Translations under genes and position numbers: made by a program
Assembly (NCBI GenBank): GCA_028704635.1
Contig: JAQWFB010000002.1
Coordinates: 693 to 64,692 of the forward strand
Direction: 5' to 3'
DNA: 64,000 nucleotides
Source: Candidatus Shapirobacteria bacterium
GTDB taxonomy: Bacteria > Patescibacteriota > Microgenomatia > UBA12405
Shown: positions 17,805-47,188 of the stretch, piece by piece
Layout of the letters: every line of letters begins with the position of its first letter
How positions within the stretch are numbered: position 1 is the stretch's first letter
Notes under the pieces: model-generated
Databases searched by the model: none
The model's input: the letters and a program-made list of their open reading frames with translations, nothing else
What the model was told of the DNA's origin: nothing

Positions 17805-18227
17805 TTACCTTAATTTTTTTCTTTTACCTCTACCATTACCTTTATTCAAACCTTTATAATTTGAAGTCAAACTATGGCAATTCGGACATAAAAGCCTTAA
17901 ATTAGTAATTTCGTTATTTTTAAAATTACCATCAAGATGATCGACTTCTAATGGTGTTTTACCTGTGGTTTTATTTATTTCTCCCCAACCACAAAGAACA
18001 CATTTATTATTAAATAATTTAAACAAATATTGTCTGGCCCATGGTCTTAATAAACCATTTGTATTTATAGGATTATCTTTTCCGCTCAACCACTTTTTAA
18101 CCTCTTCTTTTGTTTGAAAATCTTTTTGACAAATCACTGAACAATATATCTTAAAACTCGAATAACAAGGAAAAAATTCCTTCTCACAATTTTTACACTT
18201 CACCTTATTCTTACTTCTGTGTAACAT
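17805..18227 (-). CDS. HNH endonuclease
   Basis: N-terminal zinc ribbon CKNCEK. HNH core EVDHLDGN...NLRLLCPNCH. Confidence 0.75.
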   Translation of the reverse strand: MLHRSKNKVKCKNCEKEFFPCYSSFKIYCSVICQKDFQTKEEVKKWLSGKDNPINTNGLLRPWARQYLFKLFNNKCVLCGWGEINKTTGKTPLEVDHLDGNFKNNEITNLRLLCPNCHSLTSNYKGLNKGNGRGKRKKLR

Positions 18228-18269
18228 ACAAAAAAATCAAATATAATTGTTATAATATATCACTTATTA

Positions 18270-18342
18270 GCCTGAGTAGCTCAGTCGGTAGAGCAACTCT
18301 CTTGTAAAGAGTAGGTCGTGAGTTCGAATCCCACCTCAGGCT
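18270..18342 (+). tRNA. tRNA-Thr (anticodon TGT)
   Basis: Cloverleaf folded by hand: acceptor GCCTGAG, anticodon loop CTTGTAA, T-loop TTCGAAT. Confidence 0.85.
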
Positions 18343-18377
18343 CATTTTTTATTAATATTTTGGTAAAATATCAGCAC

Positions 18378-18450
18378 GCCCGGATAGCTCAGTTGGTAGA
18401 GCATCCCCTTGGTAAGGGGAAGGTCATGAATTCGAGTTTCATTCCGGGCT
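18378..18450 (+). tRNA. tRNA-Thr (anticodon GGT)
   Basis: Acceptor GCCCGGA/TCCGGGC, anticodon loop TTGGTAA. Confidence 0.85.
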
Positions 18451-18548
18451 CAATACAGTTATAAAGTTTGTCAAGTTTTTAAAGTTGTAAAGTTGTTTTA
18501 AATTTTAGCTTGATGAACTTGATAAACTTTTGACTTTATAAACTCAAT

Positions 18549-18632
18549 TGGAGGGGTGCTCCGAATGGTAAGGAACTTGTTTTGAAAACAAGCGTCAGCA
18601 ATGACATGCAGGTTCGACTCCTGTCCCCTCCG
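18549..18632 (+). tRNA. tRNA-Ser (anticodon TGA), long variable arm
   Basis: Acceptor GGAGGGG/CCCCTCC, anticodon loop TTTGAAA, 17-nt variable arm, T-loop TTCGACT. Confidence 0.8.
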
Positions 18633-18771
18633 CATTTAGCCTGTCTTTCCATGTAATTTATGTGGTATAACTACAAATCCCTAACTTTCCCTCGTATTTT
18701 TACGAAAACCAACATTTTTCATTTTTACAGCCTGTAATAACGAATTTTATTATCCTAAAACATAAAGTATA

Positions 18772-19926
18772 ATGAATGTGATGGCATATTATTTTTGGTT
18801 TCTTTTTGTATTTATATTCTACACAGCTTTTATTTTGGCGATTTATAGTGTAAATTATTTTTTTAAATTATTAAAAATTCAATCCATAATTATAAAATCA
18901 CCTGCAAAATTTTGGTATCGCACTACTGTTATTTTTATTTTTTTAGCCTCTTGTTATTGGTTTCCTTTAGGTCCAACAATTATTTTGGTCATATGGTATC
19001 TCCTTAGAAGAGAATATAAATTTAATAAATTAATTACATCTTTAAATGATCTGAGTAATGAATTAGATAAAAGGTCTAAGTGGTTAGAGAAATTAAAAAA
19101 GAGACTTAAAGTAAATCCTAAACCTGATCTATTAGAAAGGTATAATGGTTGGCCTTTAGGTATTTATAAACTTGGTTTAGATAATAATATTGCGGTATCC
19201 ATTTCTGATTTAGATGGTGAGCTTGTAGATTTTGGGCTTGATAGAATAGAAAAGAAAATTTCTTTCTTAAAAAAAGAGATAATTCCCTTTAAAAATAGAG
19301 AGGATGTCAAAAAAATGATCGGGGCTCTTGAAGAAGATATAAACGAAATAAAAAACAAATCACCTGTTGCCAATAATTTTTATTTTAGTATAAACGAAGC
19401 AAAAAAAACAATAGATCGTATTATTTCCACAACAGGAGAAATAAATGAATACATGATAAAAAAGGAAGAATTTTATGCAAGAAAAGAAGCTGAAACAAGA
19501 AGGAAAGAAAACACTTTTCTTTTGGCTAATGCTTATAAACAAAGACTAACTTCTAATTTTAAACAGAATTTATCAACAGTTGATAAATTAACAGAATTAA
19601 CACCTATTGAATTTGAAAAATGGGTTAAAAAAAATATATTTGAAACAAATGGATGGAATGTTGAAGAAACTCGAAAAACTGGAGATGGTGGAATAGATTT
19701 AGTTCTCAAAAAAGATGATGAATATTCAATTGTTCAATGTAAAAGGTTTAAAAAAACTGTTGGTGAACCAGCATTAAGAGATTTTTATGGAACGATGGTT
19801 AGCGAAGGTGTTAGTAGAGGTTATTTTGTTACTACGGGATTATTTTCTCTTTCGGCATTAAAATTTGCCGAAGATAAACCTATAGAATTAATAGATAGGA
19901 GAATTTTGGCTCAAAAATATTTATAA
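18772..19926 (+). CDS. Membrane-anchored protein with C-terminal Mrr_cat restriction-endonuclease-fold domain
   Basis: Two N-terminal TM helices, coiled coil. C-terminal GDGGIDLVL...IVQCKRF...motif typical of Mrr-N/PF04471. Confidence 0.65.
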   Translation: MNVMAYYFWFLFVFIFYTAFILAIYSVNYFFKLLKIQSIIIKSPAKFWYRTTVIFIFLASCYWFPLGPTIILVIWYLLRREYKFNKLITSLNDLSNELDKRSKWLEKLKKRLKVNPKPDLLERYNGWPLGIYKLGLDNNIAVSISDLDGELVDFGLDRIEKKISFLKKEIIPFKNREDVKKMIGALEEDINEIKNKSPVANNFYFSINEAKKTIDRIISTTGEINEYMIKKEEFYARKEAETRRKENTFLLANAYKQRLTSNFKQNLSTVDKLTELTPIEFEKWVKKNIFETNGWNVEETRKTGDGGIDLVLKKDDEYSIVQCKRFKKTVGEPALRDFYGTMVSEGVSRGYFVTTGLFSLSALKFAEDKPIELIDRRILAQKYL

Positions 19927-20022
19927 CTACAAGTATTTATACTTTAATGATTAATTGCATTAAAACAGATTTTATATTTTATATATATTATTTAATTTTA
20001 AAATAAGAGGAAGTGTTTAATT

Positions 20023-41972: not shown

Positions 41973-42066
41973 AAAATATTGATTAAAAAATCAGATTAAC
42001 TATGCTAGAATGTTTTTGAATTAAGAAAATCTTAATTCAAAAAGCACATTGAAAGGAAGAATAACC

Positions 42067-42432
42067 ATGAGAATAATTATTGTAGAGCATAATAACAATT
42101 GTGTCAGCCAAAAAGTGGAAAAAATTGGATCATCAATCAACAGAATAAAACCCCTTATTAAACAAGAAGTTAAAATCTTTTTTTCAAAAAATGATCTCGA
42201 TTCAAAAAAAATCGCCCAAAAAATTACCAGTTTAATTAAAATTAAAGAAATTAAACCAGTCACAATCTCTCTGTCCAACAGTAACCTTATCGAAACGATT
42301 AGAGCTGAAACCGACACCATTATAATTATCACCCGTGATTACAAAATTTCTCACTTTCTCCGACAAAATGGTTCTTTATTATCTGAATATGTTATAGGCG
42401 GATTAGGAAGTATAATAATTATCGATTTTTGA
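42067..42432 (+). CDS. Hypothetical protein (start at MRIIIV with SD aaaggaag). Preferred over overlapping antisense ORF
   Basis: RBS 8 nt upstream. Followed by terminator 42497-42531. Confidence 0.35.
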   Translation: MRIIIVEHNNNCVSQKVEKIGSSINRIKPLIKQEVKIFFSKNDLDSKKIAQKITSLIKIKEIKPVTISLSNSNLIETIRAETDTIIIITRDYKISHFLRQNGSLLSEYVIGGLGSIIIIDF

Positions 42433-42496
42433 TTCTAAATCAAAGCTTTTTAACAATCATTAATCAACATCACCAGGCTTTTTCAGCCTAAACTTT

Positions 42497-42531
42497 AAAC
42501 CTACATTAGGTAAAACTTTTGTAGGTTTTTT
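42497..42531 (+). terminator. Intrinsic terminator aaacctaca...tgtaggtttttt
   Basis: 8-bp stem, T-run. Confidence 0.6.
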
Positions 42532-42599: not shown

Positions 42600-43472
42600 T
42601 CATTTACACAAAGGGCACTTATCACCAGAATAATAACAATCACATTTTTCACAATGTTTCAAACCATCAACATTTCCTAGTCCGTAAACCAACTCTCCAT
42701 TTATACCCACTGACACAATTATTCCCATTCTATTATTTTCACTTCCCCAAGAACTTCCATGCCCCCCTTCAGTATTAATTTCATTCCCCATTCTTGCCAT
42801 TAAGCTTTCAAATAAATAATTATCACCATCTGCTCTTTCCATGGCCATTCTTACATCTTTTTCCATTTTTATTTTATTTTCAGTATCCTTACCTTCCTCA
42901 ATAAAATCCCAAATTTCCATAAACTCAGGCATTATTTTTTTACATTCATATATCCAATCATCAATCTCTTCAATCCTAAATCCTATCGGTTGTTGCCTTA
43001 CGCTTTCCTTATTATTAATTGAACCTATAGATTTTCCATTATTTTTTAACAATCTCTTAGCCAATTCAAACGATTCATTTTCATCACAAAGCAAGGGAAC
43101 ATGTCTCCCATAAACCACCCATTCATTTTTTCCAAAAACAGGAAATTCTATATTCAATCTTCCCTCTTTGTAAACATTTCCACCATCATCAGGACTTATC
43201 CAAACAATCAAATTGTATCCCTTTTTACCTAAATCAAAAACATTAATTGTTGCTTCTTTTTCTGCTTCTGAATGTTTATTATATTCCCAATTATCTTTTT
43301 CTATTTTACTTTCTACATAAAGATCTGAAATATTTATTCTATTTCTTAAATCTAAATCATTAGCCCTCTCCTCCAAAAACGCTCCTGCAATTTCACTAAG
43401 AGAATTTTGATTAATATCGTAAAACTTTTTATTTTCTAAATTCATATACTTTTGCTCGAAAGTTTTGGTCAT
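42600..43472 (-). CDS. Hypothetical protein with C-terminal zinc ribbon (HCEKCDCYYSGDKCPLC), last gene of nrd operon
   Basis: 290 aa ORF. CxxC...CxxC terminus. Co-directional with nrdJ and ATR gene. Confidence 0.5.
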   Translation of the reverse strand: MTKTFEQKYMNLENKKFYDINQNSLSEIAGAFLEERANDLDLRNRINISDLYVESKIEKDNWEYNKHSEAEKEATINVFDLGKKGYNLIVWISPDDGGNVYKEGRLNIEFPVFGKNEWVVYGRHVPLLCDENESFELAKRLLKNNGKSIGSINNKESVRQQPIGFRIEEIDDWIYECKKIMPEFMEIWDFIEEGKDTENKIKMEKDVRMAMERADGDNYLFESLMARMGNEINTEGGHGSSWGSENNRMGIIVSVGINGELVYGLGNVDGLKHCEKCDCYYSGDKCPLCK

Positions 43473-43534
43473 CCGGCTCTACGGTTGCGGCACAGCCTAG
43501 GAATTACACCTAGTTCCCCATTAATAATTATTTT

Positions 43535-44035
43535 TTAATTAAACTTTGACCTCCACATCCAATTTAAAAAGGATGATAATTTATTAAAATATTTCAATAC
43601 ATTTTCATCAAATTTCTCTTTTTTCTTTTCTTCTCTATCCCATTTTAAAGTCACCACCCTCCTTTCCGCTTCTCGACAATCAGTTCGACAAATATTAATT
43701 CTCGATTCAACTTCATTTTCACCAGGTATTAAAAAATCGTTTAAATCCTTAACTCTTTTTTCATATTCTTCCGAATCACTTTCTATTTCTTCAATTCTTT
43801 TCTCTCCGTTTTTCCAATCTTTACCAACATAAAGACTACTCATAATTTCATTTAAATCTTTTTCTATTTGAAGAATTTTTTCATTTTCTTCTTTTTCCTC
43901 TATCACCACTCTAGTCCACCCCAACCGGGCCTGAAACTTATCAATCGCTCCAACTGCTTCCACAAAAGGAGAATCTTTACTCACACTTAAATTGCATTCT
44001 CCTGATGTAAAACCTTTATCTCCTCTTTCACTCAT
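43535..44035 (-). CDS. PduO-type ATP:cob(I)alamin adenosyltransferase (MMAB family)
   Basis: N-terminus RGDKGFTSG...VSKDSPFVEAVGAIDKFQARLG matches TGDKGxTSL..VxKDDxRVEAxGxxDELN signature. Confidence 0.6.
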   Translation of the reverse strand: MSERGDKGFTSGECNLSVSKDSPFVEAVGAIDKFQARLGWTRVVIEEKEENEKILQIEKDLNEIMSSLYVGKDWKNGEKRIEEIESDSEEYEKRVKDLNDFLIPGENEVESRINICRTDCREAERRVVTLKWDREEKKKEKFDENVLKYFNKLSSFLNWMWRSKFN

Positions 44036-44040
44036 ATTTT

Positions 44041-46545
44041 TTAACTACATTTACTATAACCACAAAACTCATTTGTACATTTAAAACAGCCCTCCTCAGC
44101 TCGAAGTGGACTACCGCAATCTGGACAAGAAAGTACTTTACTTTCCATAACAGCTCGTTCAACTCTAATATTTTCCAATGCTGTTGTATCGATTGAATTT
44201 TTTTCGCAGGCAAACATATCTAATTGTTCACCCCGTGAAATTTCCAAAAGCGATTTCCCAACTGCATCAAACATACTCAAAACTGTCCCATTTCCTAAAC
44301 CAATTTTTTGGCCACATGAAATTCCTACTAAATTATCAGCAATTTCATCTAAACCAGCCCCATATTTTAACGATAAAGAAGCCAATCGACCAATAGCCTC
44401 AGCCGCCCCAGCCATAAATCCACCACTCTTCCCCAAGGTCACGAATACCTCCACTGGACCATCACCCGCTTCATAAAAAATTGAAGTGTAGACACTCCCC
44501 AAATCACATTTCTTTTTTAATCTCACCCCACGAGCCATTACTGGTGTTTCTTTTTTCTTTGGTGGCAAAACTACAACCTTTTCTTCAGTTGTTTCTTTTT
44601 CTTTAACTTTTGACATTGGCTCAAATGACCTTGAACCACTCCTATAAATAGTAATACCCTTAGTTCCTAAAGCATAAGATTTTAAATAAGCCTCCCTAAC
44701 ATCATCAACCGTTGCTTCCTCTGGTAAATTAATTGTTTTTGAAACCGCATTATCAGTATATTTTTGAAAAGCCGCCTGAATTCTAATATGCCATTCTGGT
44801 TCAATTTCCAAGGCTGTAATAAAAACTGATTTCAAATCTTCAGGAATTTCTTCCACTCCTTTCAAAATTCCTCCATTTTTGACAATTTTTTCAATCAATT
44901 CTTCGGAATAAATTTCTCTCCTTTTTAATTCATCAACTAAAGTTGGATTAACACTGTAAAGAGTTTTTCCTTCAACTGTGTTTTTTTGATAACCCAAAGA
45001 AAATACTGGTTCAATTCCTGAACTGGTATCAGCCAACATACTAATCGTTCCAGTTGGAGCAATCGTCGTTAAAGCCATATTTCTTGGTTTGTAATCAGTA
45101 TTAGCAAAAACACTCACATCCCACAAAGGAAAAGTTCCTCTGGTTTTAGCCAATTCACAAGTTGCCTCCCTAGCCGATTCAGTTACAAACTTCATTATTT
45201 TTCCTGCCCATTCAATCCCTTCCTCCGAATCATATCTCACCCCCAATTTAAATAATGCATCAGCAAATCCCATCACCCCAACCCCAATTCTTCTAGTTTT
45301 ACTTACCATATCCCTAATTTTTTGAACTGGAAATTCATTTACTTCCACCACATTATCCAAAAAATGCACTCCAATTCTAATAGTTTCTTTTAAATCTTCC
45401 CAATTAATGTCGCCCTTTTTAAGGGAGATGTCAGCACCAGCTGACAGAGGGTTTTGTTTTACAAACTTTGCCAAATTAACACTCCCTAAATTACAAGCAT
45501 CATAAGGCAAAAGTGGTTGTTCTCCACAAGGATTAGTAGCTTCAATTCGACCAATAGTTGGGACTGGATTTGAAGTTGAGTCGTTCATTCTGTCTATAAA
45601 AACTAAGCCTGGATCACCAAATTGCCAAGCCAATCGTGTTACTAAATTAAATACTTTATAAGCATTCAATTTCATCGCCACCTCACCTGTTCTTGGGTTA
45701 ATTAATTCATACCCTTCCCCTTCTTGGCTGGCAATTGCCCAATCGTATAATTTTTTAACTCCAGCCTCAATATCTCTCAACCTTCTTTCGACATTTCGAT
45801 CTTCCTCCGCGTTTTTTATTTCCTCAATAACCTCTTCTGGAATCGAATCGTCAGTCACAAATTTTTTATCAATTTCAATTCTCTCCATAAACGCATTCGT
45901 CACCGCCAAGGAAATATTGAAATTAGTCAAACTCCATTCATCTAATTTAACCACTGCAAATCTCAACACATCAGGATGATCAATTGACAACATTCCCATA
46001 TTTGCTCCACGTCGCACTCCACCCTGTTTAATTTGAGCCGTCACATCATTATAAGCCTGCATAAAACTAACCGGTCCAACCGTAGTTCCACCACTCGTTT
46101 TAATATAATCACCACTTGGTCGTAATCGAGAAAATGAAAAACCCGTTCCACCACCACTTTTGTGAATCATAGCCATATTCGACATGGTTTCTAAAATTGA
46201 TTCCATCGAGTCATCAATTGGCAACACGAAACAAGCTGATAATTGTTGATGTGGTTTGCCTGCATTTATCAAGCAAGGCGTATTGGGTAAAAATTTTTGT
46301 TCCGCAAATAATTGATAAAAAGTCTTGGCTTGTTTTTCGATTCCTTCATCATTTATTCCAAAAAATCTATCCCCTTTAGCCACATTAGTCGCCACTCTCC
46401 AAAAAATATCTTTAACTGTCTCATATGGTTTACCGTCTTCACTTTTTCGTGAATACCTAGTTTCAGCAATATATTTGGCATTCGCTGAAAGCTTTGGCTC
46501 CATTAGTTCACCACCACTAATATTTTGTCTTGATGTATCTGTCAT
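44041..46545 (-). CDS. nrdJ: Adenosylcobalamin-dependent (class II) ribonucleotide reductase
   Basis: 834 aa. Class II RNR core (NPCGEQPL, thiyl-Cys region). C-terminal zinc ribbon CPDCGS...CFKC. Confidence 0.9.
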   Translation of the reverse strand: MTDTSRQNISGGELMEPKLSANAKYIAETRYSRKSEDGKPYETVKDIFWRVATNVAKGDRFFGINDEGIEKQAKTFYQLFAEQKFLPNTPCLINAGKPHQQLSACFVLPIDDSMESILETMSNMAMIHKSGGGTGFSFSRLRPSGDYIKTSGGTTVGPVSFMQAYNDVTAQIKQGGVRRGANMGMLSIDHPDVLRFAVVKLDEWSLTNFNISLAVTNAFMERIEIDKKFVTDDSIPEEVIEEIKNAEEDRNVERRLRDIEAGVKKLYDWAIASQEGEGYELINPRTGEVAMKLNAYKVFNLVTRLAWQFGDPGLVFIDRMNDSTSNPVPTIGRIEATNPCGEQPLLPYDACNLGSVNLAKFVKQNPLSAGADISLKKGDINWEDLKETIRIGVHFLDNVVEVNEFPVQKIRDMVSKTRRIGVGVMGFADALFKLGVRYDSEEGIEWAGKIMKFVTESAREATCELAKTRGTFPLWDVSVFANTDYKPRNMALTTIAPTGTISMLADTSSGIEPVFSLGYQKNTVEGKTLYSVNPTLVDELKRREIYSEELIEKIVKNGGILKGVEEIPEDLKSVFITALEIEPEWHIRIQAAFQKYTDNAVSKTINLPEEATVDDVREAYLKSYALGTKGITIYRSGSRSFEPMSKVKEKETTEEKVVVLPPKKKETPVMARGVRLKKKCDLGSVYTSIFYEAGDGPVEVFVTLGKSGGFMAGAAEAIGRLASLSLKYGAGLDEIADNLVGISCGQKIGLGNGTVLSMFDAVGKSLLEISRGEQLDMFACEKNSIDTTALENIRVERAVMESKVLSCPDCGSPLRAEEGCFKCTNEFCGYSKCS

Positions 46546-46548
46546 TTT

Positions 46549-46992
46549 TTATTTTTTAAAATTACTAATTAATTTTTGAAAATCACTAACTTCATTTATA
46601 TCTAAATAAACCGTGGCAAATCGAATATATGCCATCGGATCCAAATTTTTCAACTTTTCCAAAACCAAAACTCCTATTTCCTTTGAAGGTATTTCCACAC
46701 TCGGCCAATTCAACAATGTCATTTCAATTTCATCAATCAATTTATTTTTTTCCTCTTCGTTCATTTTCCAACAAGCTTTGTCTAAACATTTTTGTAATTT
46801 TTCTCTAGAAAAGTCTTCTCTTTTGCCTGATTTTTTAATCACCTTAAGATCAATACTCCCAACTCTTTCATAAGTCGTAAATCTTTTTTTGCACTTCAAA
46901 CATTCCCTTCTTCTTCTGGTTACTTTTCCTTCTTCGGCTTCTCTGCTTTCCAATACATTGGATTCATCAAAACCACAATATGGACACAACAT
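46549..46992 (-). CDS. nrdR: Transcriptional repressor NrdR
   Basis: MLCPYCGFDESNVLESR...CLKCKKRFTTYERV zinc ribbon plus ATP-cone. Confidence 0.9.
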   Translation of the reverse strand: MLCPYCGFDESNVLESREAEEGKVTRRRRECLKCKKRFTTYERVGSIDLKVIKKSGKREDFSREKLQKCLDKACWKMNEEEKNKLIDEIEMTLLNWPSVEIPSKEIGVLVLEKLKNLDPMAYIRFATVYLDINEVSDFQKLISNFKK

Positions 46993-47031: not shown

Positions 47032-47047
47032 ACACTATTTCTAGTGG
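47032..47047 (-). promoter_or_regulatory. Candidate NrdR box (acactatttctagtgg) upstream of nrdR-nrdJ operon
   Basis: 16-bp near-palindrome resembling NrdR-box consensus acaCwAtATaTwGtgt, 40 nt upstream of nrdR start. Confidence 0.35.
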
Positions 47048-47188
47048 CTGTCCACCATCATACCCACTACCACTGGACTCCGTCAATAGACTAAAATATA
47101 TCAAAACCCCAATTTGCAATTATTCCGCGGACAAAAATACTCTTTATTAAAAATTCAATTCAAGCTACCTAACTGTTATAATACACTC

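What the first reader, a model, noticed from the sequence alone, without database searches (positions are those of the whole stretch)
42600..46992. nrdR-nrdJ operon extended by a PduO-type cobalamin adenosyltransferase and an unknown zinc-ribbon protein
Seen: on the minus strand, nrdR, class II RNR, a 166-aa ATR (GDKGFTSG...VSKDSPFVEAVGAIDKF) and a 290-aa protein ending HCEKCDCYYSGDKCPLC are co-directional with short spacers. Established: NrdJ needs adenosylcobalamin, and PduO-type ATRs make AdoCbl from cob(I)alamin. Inference: a self-contained cofactor-activation module for RNR in an organism likely to scavenge corrinoids. The 290-aa protein is a candidate novel partner, for example a cobalamin reductase, chaperone or RNR accessory factor. 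A 60-nt GC-rich segment (43473-43530) sits between the last two genes.
Basis: partly seen in the sequence, partly recalled or inferred. Interest (0 to 1): 0.55.

Follow-up and report, generated by a model that had tools for sequence, protein, structure and literature searches.

The report
B12 riboswitch gating unknown RNR-operon protein
The "GC-rich spacer" inside this ribonucleotide-reductase operon is a vitamin-B12-sensing riboswitch that switches off only the last gene, an uncharacterised protein family of tiny-genome (CPR) bacteria that carries such a riboswitch almost everywhere it occurs, which makes it a strong candidate for an unknown step in how these bacteria handle or do without B12.

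Summary
It is a class-II cobalamin riboswitch (Rfam RF01689, 43.9 bits against a cut-off of 36.5). Its regulatory hairpin ends 2 nt before X's true start codon (M10, so X is 281 aa, not 290).

A covariance model built here finds this element directly 5' of the X-family gene in 33 of 34 loci with upstream sequence. Covariation supports all four modelled helices. The layout nrdR-nrdJ-ATR-riboswitch-X recurs in 22 distinct loci, down to 22% protein identity. In other lineages riboswitch plus X stands alone, away from nrdJ.

X belongs to a family of at least 150 clusters. Every member that carries an organism name is from Patescibacteria. The family has no Pfam, NCBIfam or PDB match, although the AlphaFold model is confident (pLDDT 88). 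It is acidic and soluble, and an otherwise fixed position alternates between His and Cys.

Shown: X is a member of the B12 regulon, and the architecture is that of a translational OFF switch. Inferred (about 0.45): X scavenges or processes corrinoids for the ATR and NrdJ. The main rival is a B12-independent backup for deoxynucleotide supply.

The parts
47032..47086 (-). Promoter-like site of the operon (TTGACG-18-TATGAT, 47086-47057), followed by a palindrome CCACTAGAAATAGTGT (47047-47032) that resembles an NrdR box
   Evidence: Consensus scan, 10 of 12 matches. The same layout, with one CACTA-type box between -35 and -10 and a second palindromic box about 32 nt downstream, is present upstream of nrdR in L001, L003, L004, L006, L007 and L009. 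The NrdR-box consensus is recalled from memory, not tested with a tool.
46549..46992 (-). nrdR, transcriptional repressor of RNR genes (147 aa)
   Evidence: TIGR00244 at 154.9 bits against a cut-off of 124.65; PF22811 plus the ATP-cone PF03477
44041..46545 (-). nrdJ, adenosylcobalamin-dependent class II ribonucleotide reductase (834 aa) with a TSCPD domain and a Cys-rich C-terminus
   Evidence: TIGR02504 at 662 bits against a cut-off of 400; PF02867, PF00317, PF12637
43535..44035 (-). PduO-type corrinoid adenosyltransferase (166 aa)
   Evidence: PF01923, E 8.7e-34, covering 4-169 of 171 profile positions. TIGR00636 scores 98 bits, below its equivalog cut-off of 108. The N-terminal sequence RGDKGFTS is visible in the ORF.
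43443..43535 (-). Cobalamin riboswitch, comprising a class-II aptamer and a regulatory hairpin. P4 43513-43497; P5/L5 43494-43486 (L5 UGCCG 43492-43488); P6 43484-43473; P13 43463-43448 (L13 CGAGCA 43458-43453); start codon 43445-43443
   Evidence: Rfam RF01689 at 43.9 bits against a gathering score of 36.5. Own model R1 scores 93.6 bits, E 1e-26. Covariation on 29 sequences gives 93% paired against 72% in shuffles, with 12 of 15 pairs changed on both sides. Coordinates.
42600..43445 (-). X, an uncharacterised acidic soluble protein (281 aa from Met10) with a C-terminal four-Cys zinc ribbon and a Gly-rich loop GGHGSSW
   Evidence: No Pfam or NCBIfam hit. 56 close homologues and at least 150 clusters in the exhaustive search. 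AF2 pLDDT 88. No Foldseek match in PDB or BFVD. Conserved residues.
42475..42527 (-). Two stem-loops after the X stop codon (42527-42498 and 42489-42475), the likely 3' end of the operon
   Evidence: ViennaRNA fold at -18.7 kcal/mol. They were not picked up by the strict terminator scan because there is no clean U-tract, so this is tentative.

Best explanation
This is a two-layer regulated deoxynucleotide operon of a Microgenomates (CPR) bacterium. Transcription of nrdR-nrdJ-pduO-X starts at a promoter that carries NrdR-box-like palindromes. Within the mRNA, seven nucleotides after the ATR stop codon, sits a class-II cobalamin riboswitch. When cobalamin is bound, loop L5 (UGCCG) should dock onto loop L13 (CG[A]GCA) of a hairpin that ends 2 nt before the AUG. 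That would hide the ribosome-binding region, so X is not translated while NrdJ and the ATR still are. X is therefore made only when RNR is wanted and cobalamin is scarce. My preferred reading of X is a cytoplasmic corrinoid-handling protein. It would capture or process scarce incoming corrinoid, for example by removing the upper ligand or reducing the cobalt, and pass it to the PduO-type ATR, which makes AdoCbl for NrdJ. The His/Cys position on the Gly-rich loop is a candidate cobalt ligand or catalytic residue. Shown here: the genes, the riboswitch identity and its covariation, and the family-wide link between riboswitch and X. Inferred: the OFF direction of the switch, from its architecture and published class-II mechanisms. 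Hypothesis: the biochemical role of X.
For: The riboswitch scores above Rfam's curated threshold in the window (43.9 against 36.5), and the same holds upstream of distant X relatives under three clan models, RF01689, RF01482 and RF00174. The own covariance model finds one strong hit directly 5' of the X-family gene in 33 of 34 loci with upstream sequence, with only two weak stray hits in 393 kb. All four helices covary, and no shuffle out of 500 reaches the observed values. The P13 stem varies in a compensatory way while the loop CGAGCA stays fixed, and in L004 and L022 the AUG lies inside the stem. L5-L13 docking with unpaired nucleotides, and an RBS located in L13, is the published mechanism for this class (PMC5028336). 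Gene linkage is strong: nrdR-nrdJ-ATR-riboswitch-X occurs in 22 distinct loci, including relatives at only 22-26% identity. X is soluble and acidic, with median pI 4.85 and no membrane segment. It has many invariant polar residues and a His/Cys alternation at a fixed site. From general knowledge, most soluble proteins in OFF-type B12 regulons are salvage or processing enzymes, and an ATR needs its substrate freed of its upper ligand and reduced.
Against: There is no direct evidence that X binds or transforms a corrinoid. It has no DxHxxG motif, no similarity to CblC, BtuM, PduS or any B12-binding domain, and no fold match at all. The many invariant Glu and Arg residues look like an enzyme active site but do not indicate the substrate. 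Repression by B12 is equally what one expects of a B12-independent substitute. The outer closing helix (P1/P3) of the aptamer is weak in the nrdJ-linked versions, and ligand binding was not tested. One family member, L036, has no riboswitch.
Confidence: 0.45

Rival explanations
1. X is a B12-independent backup. When cobalamin is missing and NrdJ cannot work, X supplies or spares deoxynucleotides by another route, for example salvage of deoxynucleosides or deoxynucleotides taken from the host. This would parallel the way B12 riboswitches repress metE or the class I and class III RNRs in other bacteria.
For: The OFF-type riboswitch logic is exactly that used for B12-independent isozymes (general knowledge). 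X sits in a deoxynucleotide neighbourhood with nrdR and nrdJ upstream and, on the same strand downstream, SIMPL, thyX, tmk, prs and SHMT. dCTP deaminase or thymidine kinase appear nearby in related loci. Double gating by NrdR and by B12 fits a protein needed only when dNTPs are low and B12 is absent. The invariant Glu and Arg residues look enzymatic.
Against: At 281 aa with no RNR-like domain, X cannot itself be a reductase (hhalign against NrdJ gives probability 3%; no NrdD model match). It has no P-loop or any known kinase, nuclease or transferase signature. It is strongly acidic, which does not favour a DNA-binding nuclease. In many lineages X stands alone, away from nucleotide genes.
Confidence: 0.25
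2. X is a regulator or stress effector of the B12-starved state. It might be a protein that holds, protects or inhibits apo-NrdJ, or that modulates NrdR, acting through protein-protein contacts via its zinc ribbon and not on corrinoids or nucleotides.
For: The position after nrdJ and the ATR is conserved. Zinc ribbons often mediate macromolecular contacts. NrdJ here also ends in a Cys-rich ribbon.
Against: In at least six loci X is encoded far from nrdJ as a solo gene, five of them with the riboswitch. About a dozen invariant polar residues and a His/Cys site suggest catalysis or ligand binding rather than a scaffold. The acidic pI argues against nucleic-acid binding.
Confidence: 0.12
3. The riboswitch match is a decayed or chance element and X is constitutively translated, so the GC-rich spacer has no regulatory role.
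For: The MFE fold of the region is no better than shuffled sequence (z = 0.37). P1/P3 pairing is poor in the Rfam alignment. Several homologous elements score below Rfam's gathering score.
Against: The window element is above the gathering score. It is conserved at the same place in 33 of 34 loci across proteins only about 20% identical. Twelve of 15 pairs show compensatory changes, and the slid and shuffled controls collapse. The L5 and L13 loops are invariant and the hairpin always abuts the start codon.
Confidence: 0.03

Closest known systems
Class-II (AdoCbl-variant) cobalamin riboswitch, e.g. env8HyCbl (Rfam RF01689, clan CL00101)
   Same: It shares the conserved core (GGUG..AAUUCC, GCCGCAAC) and helices P4, P5 and P6. 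The short P6 lacks the peripheral extension. A P13 hairpin next to the start codon has a loop complementary to L5 with one unpaired A, which matches the published kissing-loop translational OFF mechanism.
   Different: It sits inside an operon, 7 nt after the previous gene's stop codon, rather than in a 5' leader. The outer P1/P3 helix is reduced to 2-3 possible pairs in the nrdJ-linked versions. It controls a gene of unknown function rather than a transporter or a biosynthetic gene. Ligand preference (AqCbl/MeCbl or AdoCbl) is untested.
B12-riboswitch repression of B12-independent RNRs or isozymes alongside an NrdR-controlled nrdJ (known from actinomycetes; recalled from memory)
   Same: The regulatory logic is the same: a B12-dependent reductase under NrdR, and a second gene turned off by cobalamin.
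   Different: Here the repressed gene is not an RNR, and it lies in the same transcript as nrdJ.
Eukaryotic CblC (MMACHC) to CblD to ATR (MMAB) cobalamin processing and trafficking pathway
   Same: It works like the role proposed here: a soluble protein of about 280 aa that strips or reduces incoming cobalamin and hands it to a PduO-type ATR.
   Different: No sequence or fold similarity was detected (no Pfam hit, no Foldseek hit). X has a zinc ribbon and a His/Cys loop that I do not recall in CblC. Membership was tested and not met.
PduO/PduS module of the propanediol-utilisation operon (ATR plus cobalamin reductase)
   Same: An ATR is encoded next to a partner that prepares its substrate, and the four Cys of X could in principle bind iron like a rubredoxin knuckle.
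   Different: No flavin or Fe-S domain is recognisable. Only generic zinc-ribbon matches were found. X is regulated by a riboswitch rather than by a pathway inducer.
BtuM (small B12 transporter with a cobalt-ligating Cys that decyanates CNCbl; recalled from memory)
   Same: It offers a precedent for a conserved Cys or His acting as a protein-derived axial ligand in a B12 acquisition protein under riboswitch control.
   Different: BtuM is an integral membrane protein, whereas X has no membrane segment and no sequence similarity to it.

Membership tests
Cobalamin riboswitch (Rfam clan CL00101, model RF01689 AdoCbl-II) | Score at or above the curated gathering threshold | tested here: met
   43.9 bits against 36.5, E 3e-7 over 64 kb on both strands
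Cobalamin riboswitch (Rfam clan CL00101, model RF01689 AdoCbl-II) | Core helices P4, P5 and P6 supported by compensatory changes in homologues | tested here: met
   Each helix has at least one pair changed on both sides; 92-99% of cells are paired; no shuffle out of 500 reaches the observed values; slid controls reach at most 58%. The alignment was fitted to the model, which favours the structure somewhat.
Cobalamin riboswitch (Rfam clan CL00101, model RF01689 AdoCbl-II) | Closing helix P1/P3 around the four-way junction | tested here: inconclusive
   Clear in the solo loci L023, L024 and L030-L034. Only 2-3 possible pairs remain in the window and other nrdJ-linked versions, and Rfam marks non-standard pairs there.
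Cobalamin riboswitch (Rfam clan CL00101, model RF01689 AdoCbl-II) | Regulatory P13 hairpin whose loop can kiss L5 and which holds the RBS or start codon | tested here: met
   The P13 stem covaries at all 5 pairs. The L13 loop CGAGCA and L5 UGCCG are invariant and complementary with one unpaired A. The hairpin ends 2-8 nt before the AUG or includes it. This agrees with PMC5028336. Actual docking was not tested.
Cobalamin riboswitch (Rfam clan CL00101, model RF01689 AdoCbl-II) | Binds a cobalamin and changes gene expression | not testable with these tools
   Needs in-line probing, ITC or reporter assays
NrdJ (class II, AdoCbl-dependent RNR) | Equivalog HMM above the trusted cut-off | tested here: met
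   TIGR02504 at 662.4 bits against 399.95
NrdR | Equivalog HMM above cut-off, with zinc ribbon plus ATP-cone architecture | tested here: met
   TIGR00244 at 154.9 bits against 124.65; PF22811 plus PF03477
PduO-type corrinoid adenosyltransferase | Pfam Cob_adeno_trans domain over its full length | tested here: met
   PF01923, E 8.7e-34, 117.5 bits against 24, covering 4-169 of 171 profile positions
PduO-type corrinoid adenosyltransferase | NCBIfam equivalog-domain model TIGR00636 above cut-off | tested here: not met
   98.1 bits against 108.45. It is a divergent, short (166 aa) member, so the fold family is secure but exact functional equivalence is not asserted.
Any described protein family, for X (Pfam, NCBIfam, PDB sequences, PDB and BFVD folds) | Significant sequence or structure match for the roughly 250-aa body | tested here: not met
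Zinc ribbon (C-terminal domain of X) | Two CxxC/CPxC knuckles conserved across the family | tested here: met
   C265, C277 and C280 are invariant and C268 is at least 90% conserved in 48 diverse members. PF13240, PF13248 and PF12773 give weak hits in 12-13 of 48 members. The identity of the bound metal is unknown.
NrdD (class III anaerobic RNR), the name NCBI gives to one 59-aa fragment of an X-family protein | Match to an NrdD model or a glycyl-radical domain | tested here: not met
   No NrdD family appears even at E <= 10, only generic ribbon families far below cut-off. The name on MBU1089104.1 looks like an annotation artefact.

The most novel reading that the evidence does not exclude
X founds a new, CPR-specific class of cytoplasmic cobalamin-trafficking or processing enzyme. 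It would be a non-homologous functional analogue of CblC/CblD, using a His or Cys on a flexible Gly-rich loop as cobalt ligand and a rubredoxin-like four-Cys knuckle. It would be produced only under B12 scarcity and would feed a minimal ATR-to-NrdJ pathway. That would explain how ultra-small symbiotic bacteria with no recognisable B12 salvage genes keep their only RNR running.
Probability: 0.3. Interest if true: 0.8.

Novelty: new variant of a known kind. Interest (0 to 1): 0.62.

Why it matters
From general knowledge, many CPR/Patescibacteria appear to depend on a B12-requiring class II RNR for DNA precursors, cannot make B12, and have few recognisable uptake or processing genes. A protein family that is tied to a cobalamin riboswitch almost everywhere it occurs, that is often built into the nrdJ-ATR operon, and that has no known fold is a concrete, testable candidate for the missing step, or alternatively for an unknown way of coping without B12. 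It also gives a clean natural example of a riboswitch placed inside an operon to gate a single cistron, and a set of compact class-II aptamers with a reduced closing helix.

Tried and rejected
1. Pfam and NCBIfam scans of X and of 58 relatives returned only C-terminal zinc-ribbon hits.
2. A PDB sequence-profile search gave nothing better than E 0.25.
3. Foldseek of the confident AF2 model against PDB and BFVD gave nothing with E <= 0.001. The top hits (TagF, PAS/LOV, LAGLIDADG) have TM-scores of 0.2 or less and were disregarded.
5. The NCBI name 'anaerobic ribonucleoside-triphosphate reductase' on a 59-aa fragment suggested a link to NrdD. I rejected it because no NrdD model matches, and hhalign of the X profile against NrdJ gives probability 3%.
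6. Thermodynamic folding of the spacer is uninformative (z = 0.37), so I relied on covariation instead.
A C-type subset, A5, worked.
8. The second AF2 model, of a C-type member, reached only pLDDT 67 and was not used for fold search.
9. Five literature searches were run. Four looked for this family or for B12 riboswitches in CPR bacteria and found nothing relevant. The fifth supplied the riboswitch mechanism paper.
10. Source names for 20 remote members yielded only 'Patescibacteria group bacterium' or nothing.
11. The 30 largest other ORFs of the window contain no btu-type transporter and no second B12 enzyme.

Full report
**Observation**

The minus strand of the window carries four tightly packed ORFs:
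- nrdR, 46549-46992.
- nrdJ, 44041-46545.
- A 166-aa ORF, 43535-44035.
- A 290-aa ORF, 42600-43472.

The spacers are 3, 5 and 62 nt. Family scans confirm the first three:
- NrdR: TIGR00244, 154.9 bits against a cut-off of 124.65.
- Class II AdoCbl-dependent RNR: TIGR02504, 662 bits against 400, with a TSCPD domain.
- A Cob_adeno_trans (PduO-type) adenosyltransferase: PF01923, E 8.7e-34. The stricter TIGR00636 model scores 98 bits, just below its cut-off of 108.

The fourth ORF has no Pfam or NCBIfam match. The window is 33% G+C, and its gene content is that of a Microgenomates/CPR chromosome: ribosomal proteins, MreB, PBP2, Mur ligase, Ddl and a type IV secretion coupling protein.

**What the spacer is**

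A scan of the whole window against Rfam at curated thresholds returns five tRNAs and one other hit. That hit is RF01689, the AdoCbl-II (class II cobalamin) riboswitch aptamer, at 43458-43535 on the minus strand, scoring 43.9 bits against a gathering score of 36.5 with E 3e-7.

The ATG that opens the 290-aa ORF (43472) lies inside the aptamer. Most close homologues of the protein are 278-286 aa and align from Met10. The RNA model I built ends exactly at the ATG at 43445-43443. The protein, which I call X, is therefore most likely 281 aa (42600-43445).

**Conservation of the RNA**

The core GUGCCGC[A/U]AC occurs upstream of every X-family gene I could examine. Rfam itself scores the homologous elements as follows:
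- Just below threshold in three close loci, at 32-36 bits.
- Above threshold upstream of distant relatives: L023 RF01482 at 54.6 bits against 50, and L024 RF01689 at 41.7 bits.
- Above threshold in 10 of the 12 metagenomic loci that have upstream sequence, under RF01689, RF01482 or RF00174.

A covariance model built from 13 simple versions (R1) finds one strong hit directly 5' of the gene in 31 of 32 loci, with only two weak strays in 393 kb. It also hits both loci fetched later, giving 33 of 34 overall. The single exception, L036, has a plain AT-rich spacer.

On the 29-sequence model alignment:
- 93% of cells form standard pairs, against 72% in shuffles.
- 12 of 15 pairs show changes on both sides.
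- No shuffle out of 500 reaches the observed values.
- Sliding the 3' partners drops pairing to 58% or less.

All four helices are supported. The alignment was fitted to the model, which favours the structure somewhat. On the other hand, a few complex loci are visibly misaligned in P13, which works against it.

**Expression platform**

A hairpin, P13, always abuts the start codon. In the window it is ACUUU-CGAGCA-AAAGU (43463-43448), ending 2 nt before the AUG. Its stem changes in a compensatory way across loci (CUUA/UAAG, CUUG/CAAG, UCC/GGA, AUUCA/UGAAU), whereas the loop CGAGCA is essentially invariant. In L004 and L022 the AUG is part of the stem.

Loop L5 (UGCCG, invariant) is complementary to L13 if the A is left unpaired. 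According to Polaski et al. 2016 (PMC5028336), in this riboswitch class cobalamin stabilises a kissing loop between L5 and L13. L13 carries the ribosome-binding site, and at least one unpaired nucleotide always interrupts the loop-loop helix. I therefore infer a translational OFF switch.

The aptamer begins 7 nt after the ATR stop codon, so in this operon it gates X alone. The outer P1/P3 helix is obvious in the solo loci but reduced to 2-3 possible pairs in the nrdJ-linked ones, and I leave that point open. MFE folding alone is uninformative.

**Operon boundaries**

Upstream of nrdR there is a promoter-like site (TTGACG-18-TATGAT) and a palindrome, CCACTAGAAATAGTGT. Six related loci share the layout of two CACTA-type boxes about 32 nt apart, overlapping the promoter. 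That matches my recollection of tandem NrdR boxes, but I did not test it with a model. Two stem-loops follow the X stop codon.

**The X family**

The close family has 56 members at 40-87% identity. Those that carry organism names are Shapirobacteria or Woesebacteria. Only 13 of 185,579 species-representative genomes encode it.

An exhaustive profile search finds at least 150 clusters at 50% identity with E <= 1e-3, and 65 with E <= 1e-10. Most are 270-350 aa and match over most of their length. None of the ten distant members tested has a Pfam domain. Every member that carries an organism name comes from Patescibacteria; most have no name.

Across about 20% identity, the features that survive are:
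- E25 and E62.
- W-I-S-P-P.
- Y-x-E-G-R.
- L-R-x-x-P.
- W179 and E213.
- A Gly-rich loop, G-x-[H/C]-G-x-S-N.
- A C-terminal CxxC...CPxC ribbon.

The loop position is His in the window protein and its nearer relatives and Cys in the most distant subfamily. The family is acidic (median pI 4.85 for the close group) and has no membrane segment.

**Genomic linkage**

The order nrdR-nrdJ-(optional small gene)-ATR-riboswitch-X is found in 22 distinct loci. These include:
- H-type relatives at 22-25% identity (L042, L043).
- C-type relatives at 24-26% identity (L026-L029).

In the window, thyX, tmk, prs and SHMT lie downstream on the same strand, and most related loci also have thyX, tmk and SHMT downstream. 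In other lineages (L023, L024, L030, L031, L033) riboswitch plus X stands alone, often followed by a tRNA gene and with no nrdJ within 4-8 kb.

The link between X and the riboswitch is thus family-wide, and the link between X and nrdJ/ATR is frequent and ancient but not obligatory.

**Interpretation**

What is shown is that X belongs to the cobalamin regulon of these bacteria. In the window it would be expressed only when the NrdR-controlled operon is on and cobalamin is low.

What X does is inferred. I favour a cytoplasmic corrinoid-handling role, at about 0.45: capture, upper-ligand removal or reduction ahead of the ATR. My reasons are these:
- From general knowledge, soluble members of OFF-type B12 regulons are mostly salvage or processing proteins.
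- X is wedged next to an ATR that needs a reduced substrate freed of its upper ligand.
- A His/Cys swap on a flexible loop is what one would expect of a cobalt ligand.
- The window holds no recognisable alternative for such steps.

The principal rival, at about 0.25, is a B12-independent backup for deoxynucleotide supply. It fits the same regulatory logic and the nucleotide-metabolism neighbourhood. X cannot itself be an RNR, though. A regulatory or holdase role (about 0.12) and a non-functional riboswitch (about 0.03) are less likely.

**Novelty**

The riboswitch is a new member of a known class, with an unusual intra-operon position and a reduced closing helix. The operon nrdR-nrdJ-pduO is ordinary. 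The protein it gates is an uncharacterised family without a detectable fold relative. Four literature searches aimed at finding it found no description of it. Overall I rate this as a new variant of a known kind of system, and as a good entry point to an open question: how CPR bacteria obtain and activate B12.

Noticed in passing
L001 15468-15521 (minus strand): A type III hammerhead ribozyme match just above Rfam's gathering score (49.2 bits against 48.5) in a Woesebacteria contig, between a glycosyltransferase gene and an unknown gene.
   Followed up: no
window 47032-47086 (minus); L001, L003, L004, L006, L007, L009 upstream of nrdR: A conserved promoter layout with two CACTA-type palindromic boxes about 32 nt apart overlapping -35/-10. 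It resembles tandem NrdR boxes, implying autoregulation of the operon. The consensus is recalled from memory.
   Followed up: partly
L003 7502-7912; L006 7485-7898: An optional 136-137 aa protein encoded between the ATR and the riboswitch. It has several CxxC pairs and a C-terminal membrane anchor and no family match. It could be another accessory of the module.
   Followed up: partly
L006 6330-7025; L043 6734-7390; L003 6784-7035: A class I SAM-dependent methyltransferase is inserted between nrdJ and the ATR in two distant lineages, and a DUF1653 protein occupies the same place in a third. Any relevance to corrinoids is unknown.
   Followed up: no
L009 8001-8978 (P0047); P0027-P0042: Public gene calls for several X homologues start too far upstream. 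In L009 the called GTG lies inside the riboswitch, and members with 20-60 extra N-terminal residues probably share the problem. The window's 290-aa ORF has the same defect.
   Followed up: partly
P0218 (MBU1089104.1), a fragment of the P0117-type protein: NCBI names a 59-aa C-terminal fragment of an X-family protein 'anaerobic ribonucleoside-triphosphate reductase, partial'. No NrdD model supports this, so it is probably zinc-ribbon cross-annotation.
   Followed up: yes
L007 9653-11284; L042 10742-12376: ThyX is called as an unusually long protein of 543-544 aa (normally about 240 aa) in two loci, suggesting a duplication or fusion.
   Followed up: no
window 18001-20000: This is the lowest G+C in the window (28.9%) and the only 2-kb block with positive GC skew. 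It holds three tRNA genes (18270-18632) followed by an Mrr-type restriction endonuclease (18772-19926), so it may be a small island or a strand-switch point.
   Followed up: no
window 42021-42432: Two overlapping ORFs on opposite strands (103 aa on the minus strand, hydrophobic; 127 aa on the plus strand) fill the stretch downstream of the X terminator-like hairpins. The minus-strand ORF has no Pfam match and the plus-strand ORF was not scanned. It is unclear whether either is a gene.
   Followed up: no
L023 9046-9117; L030, L031, L033, L036, L039: In the solo arrangement the X-family gene is followed within about 60-500 nt by a tRNA gene with an identical Rfam score in several loci, giving a conserved riboswitch-X-tRNA unit.
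   Followed up: no
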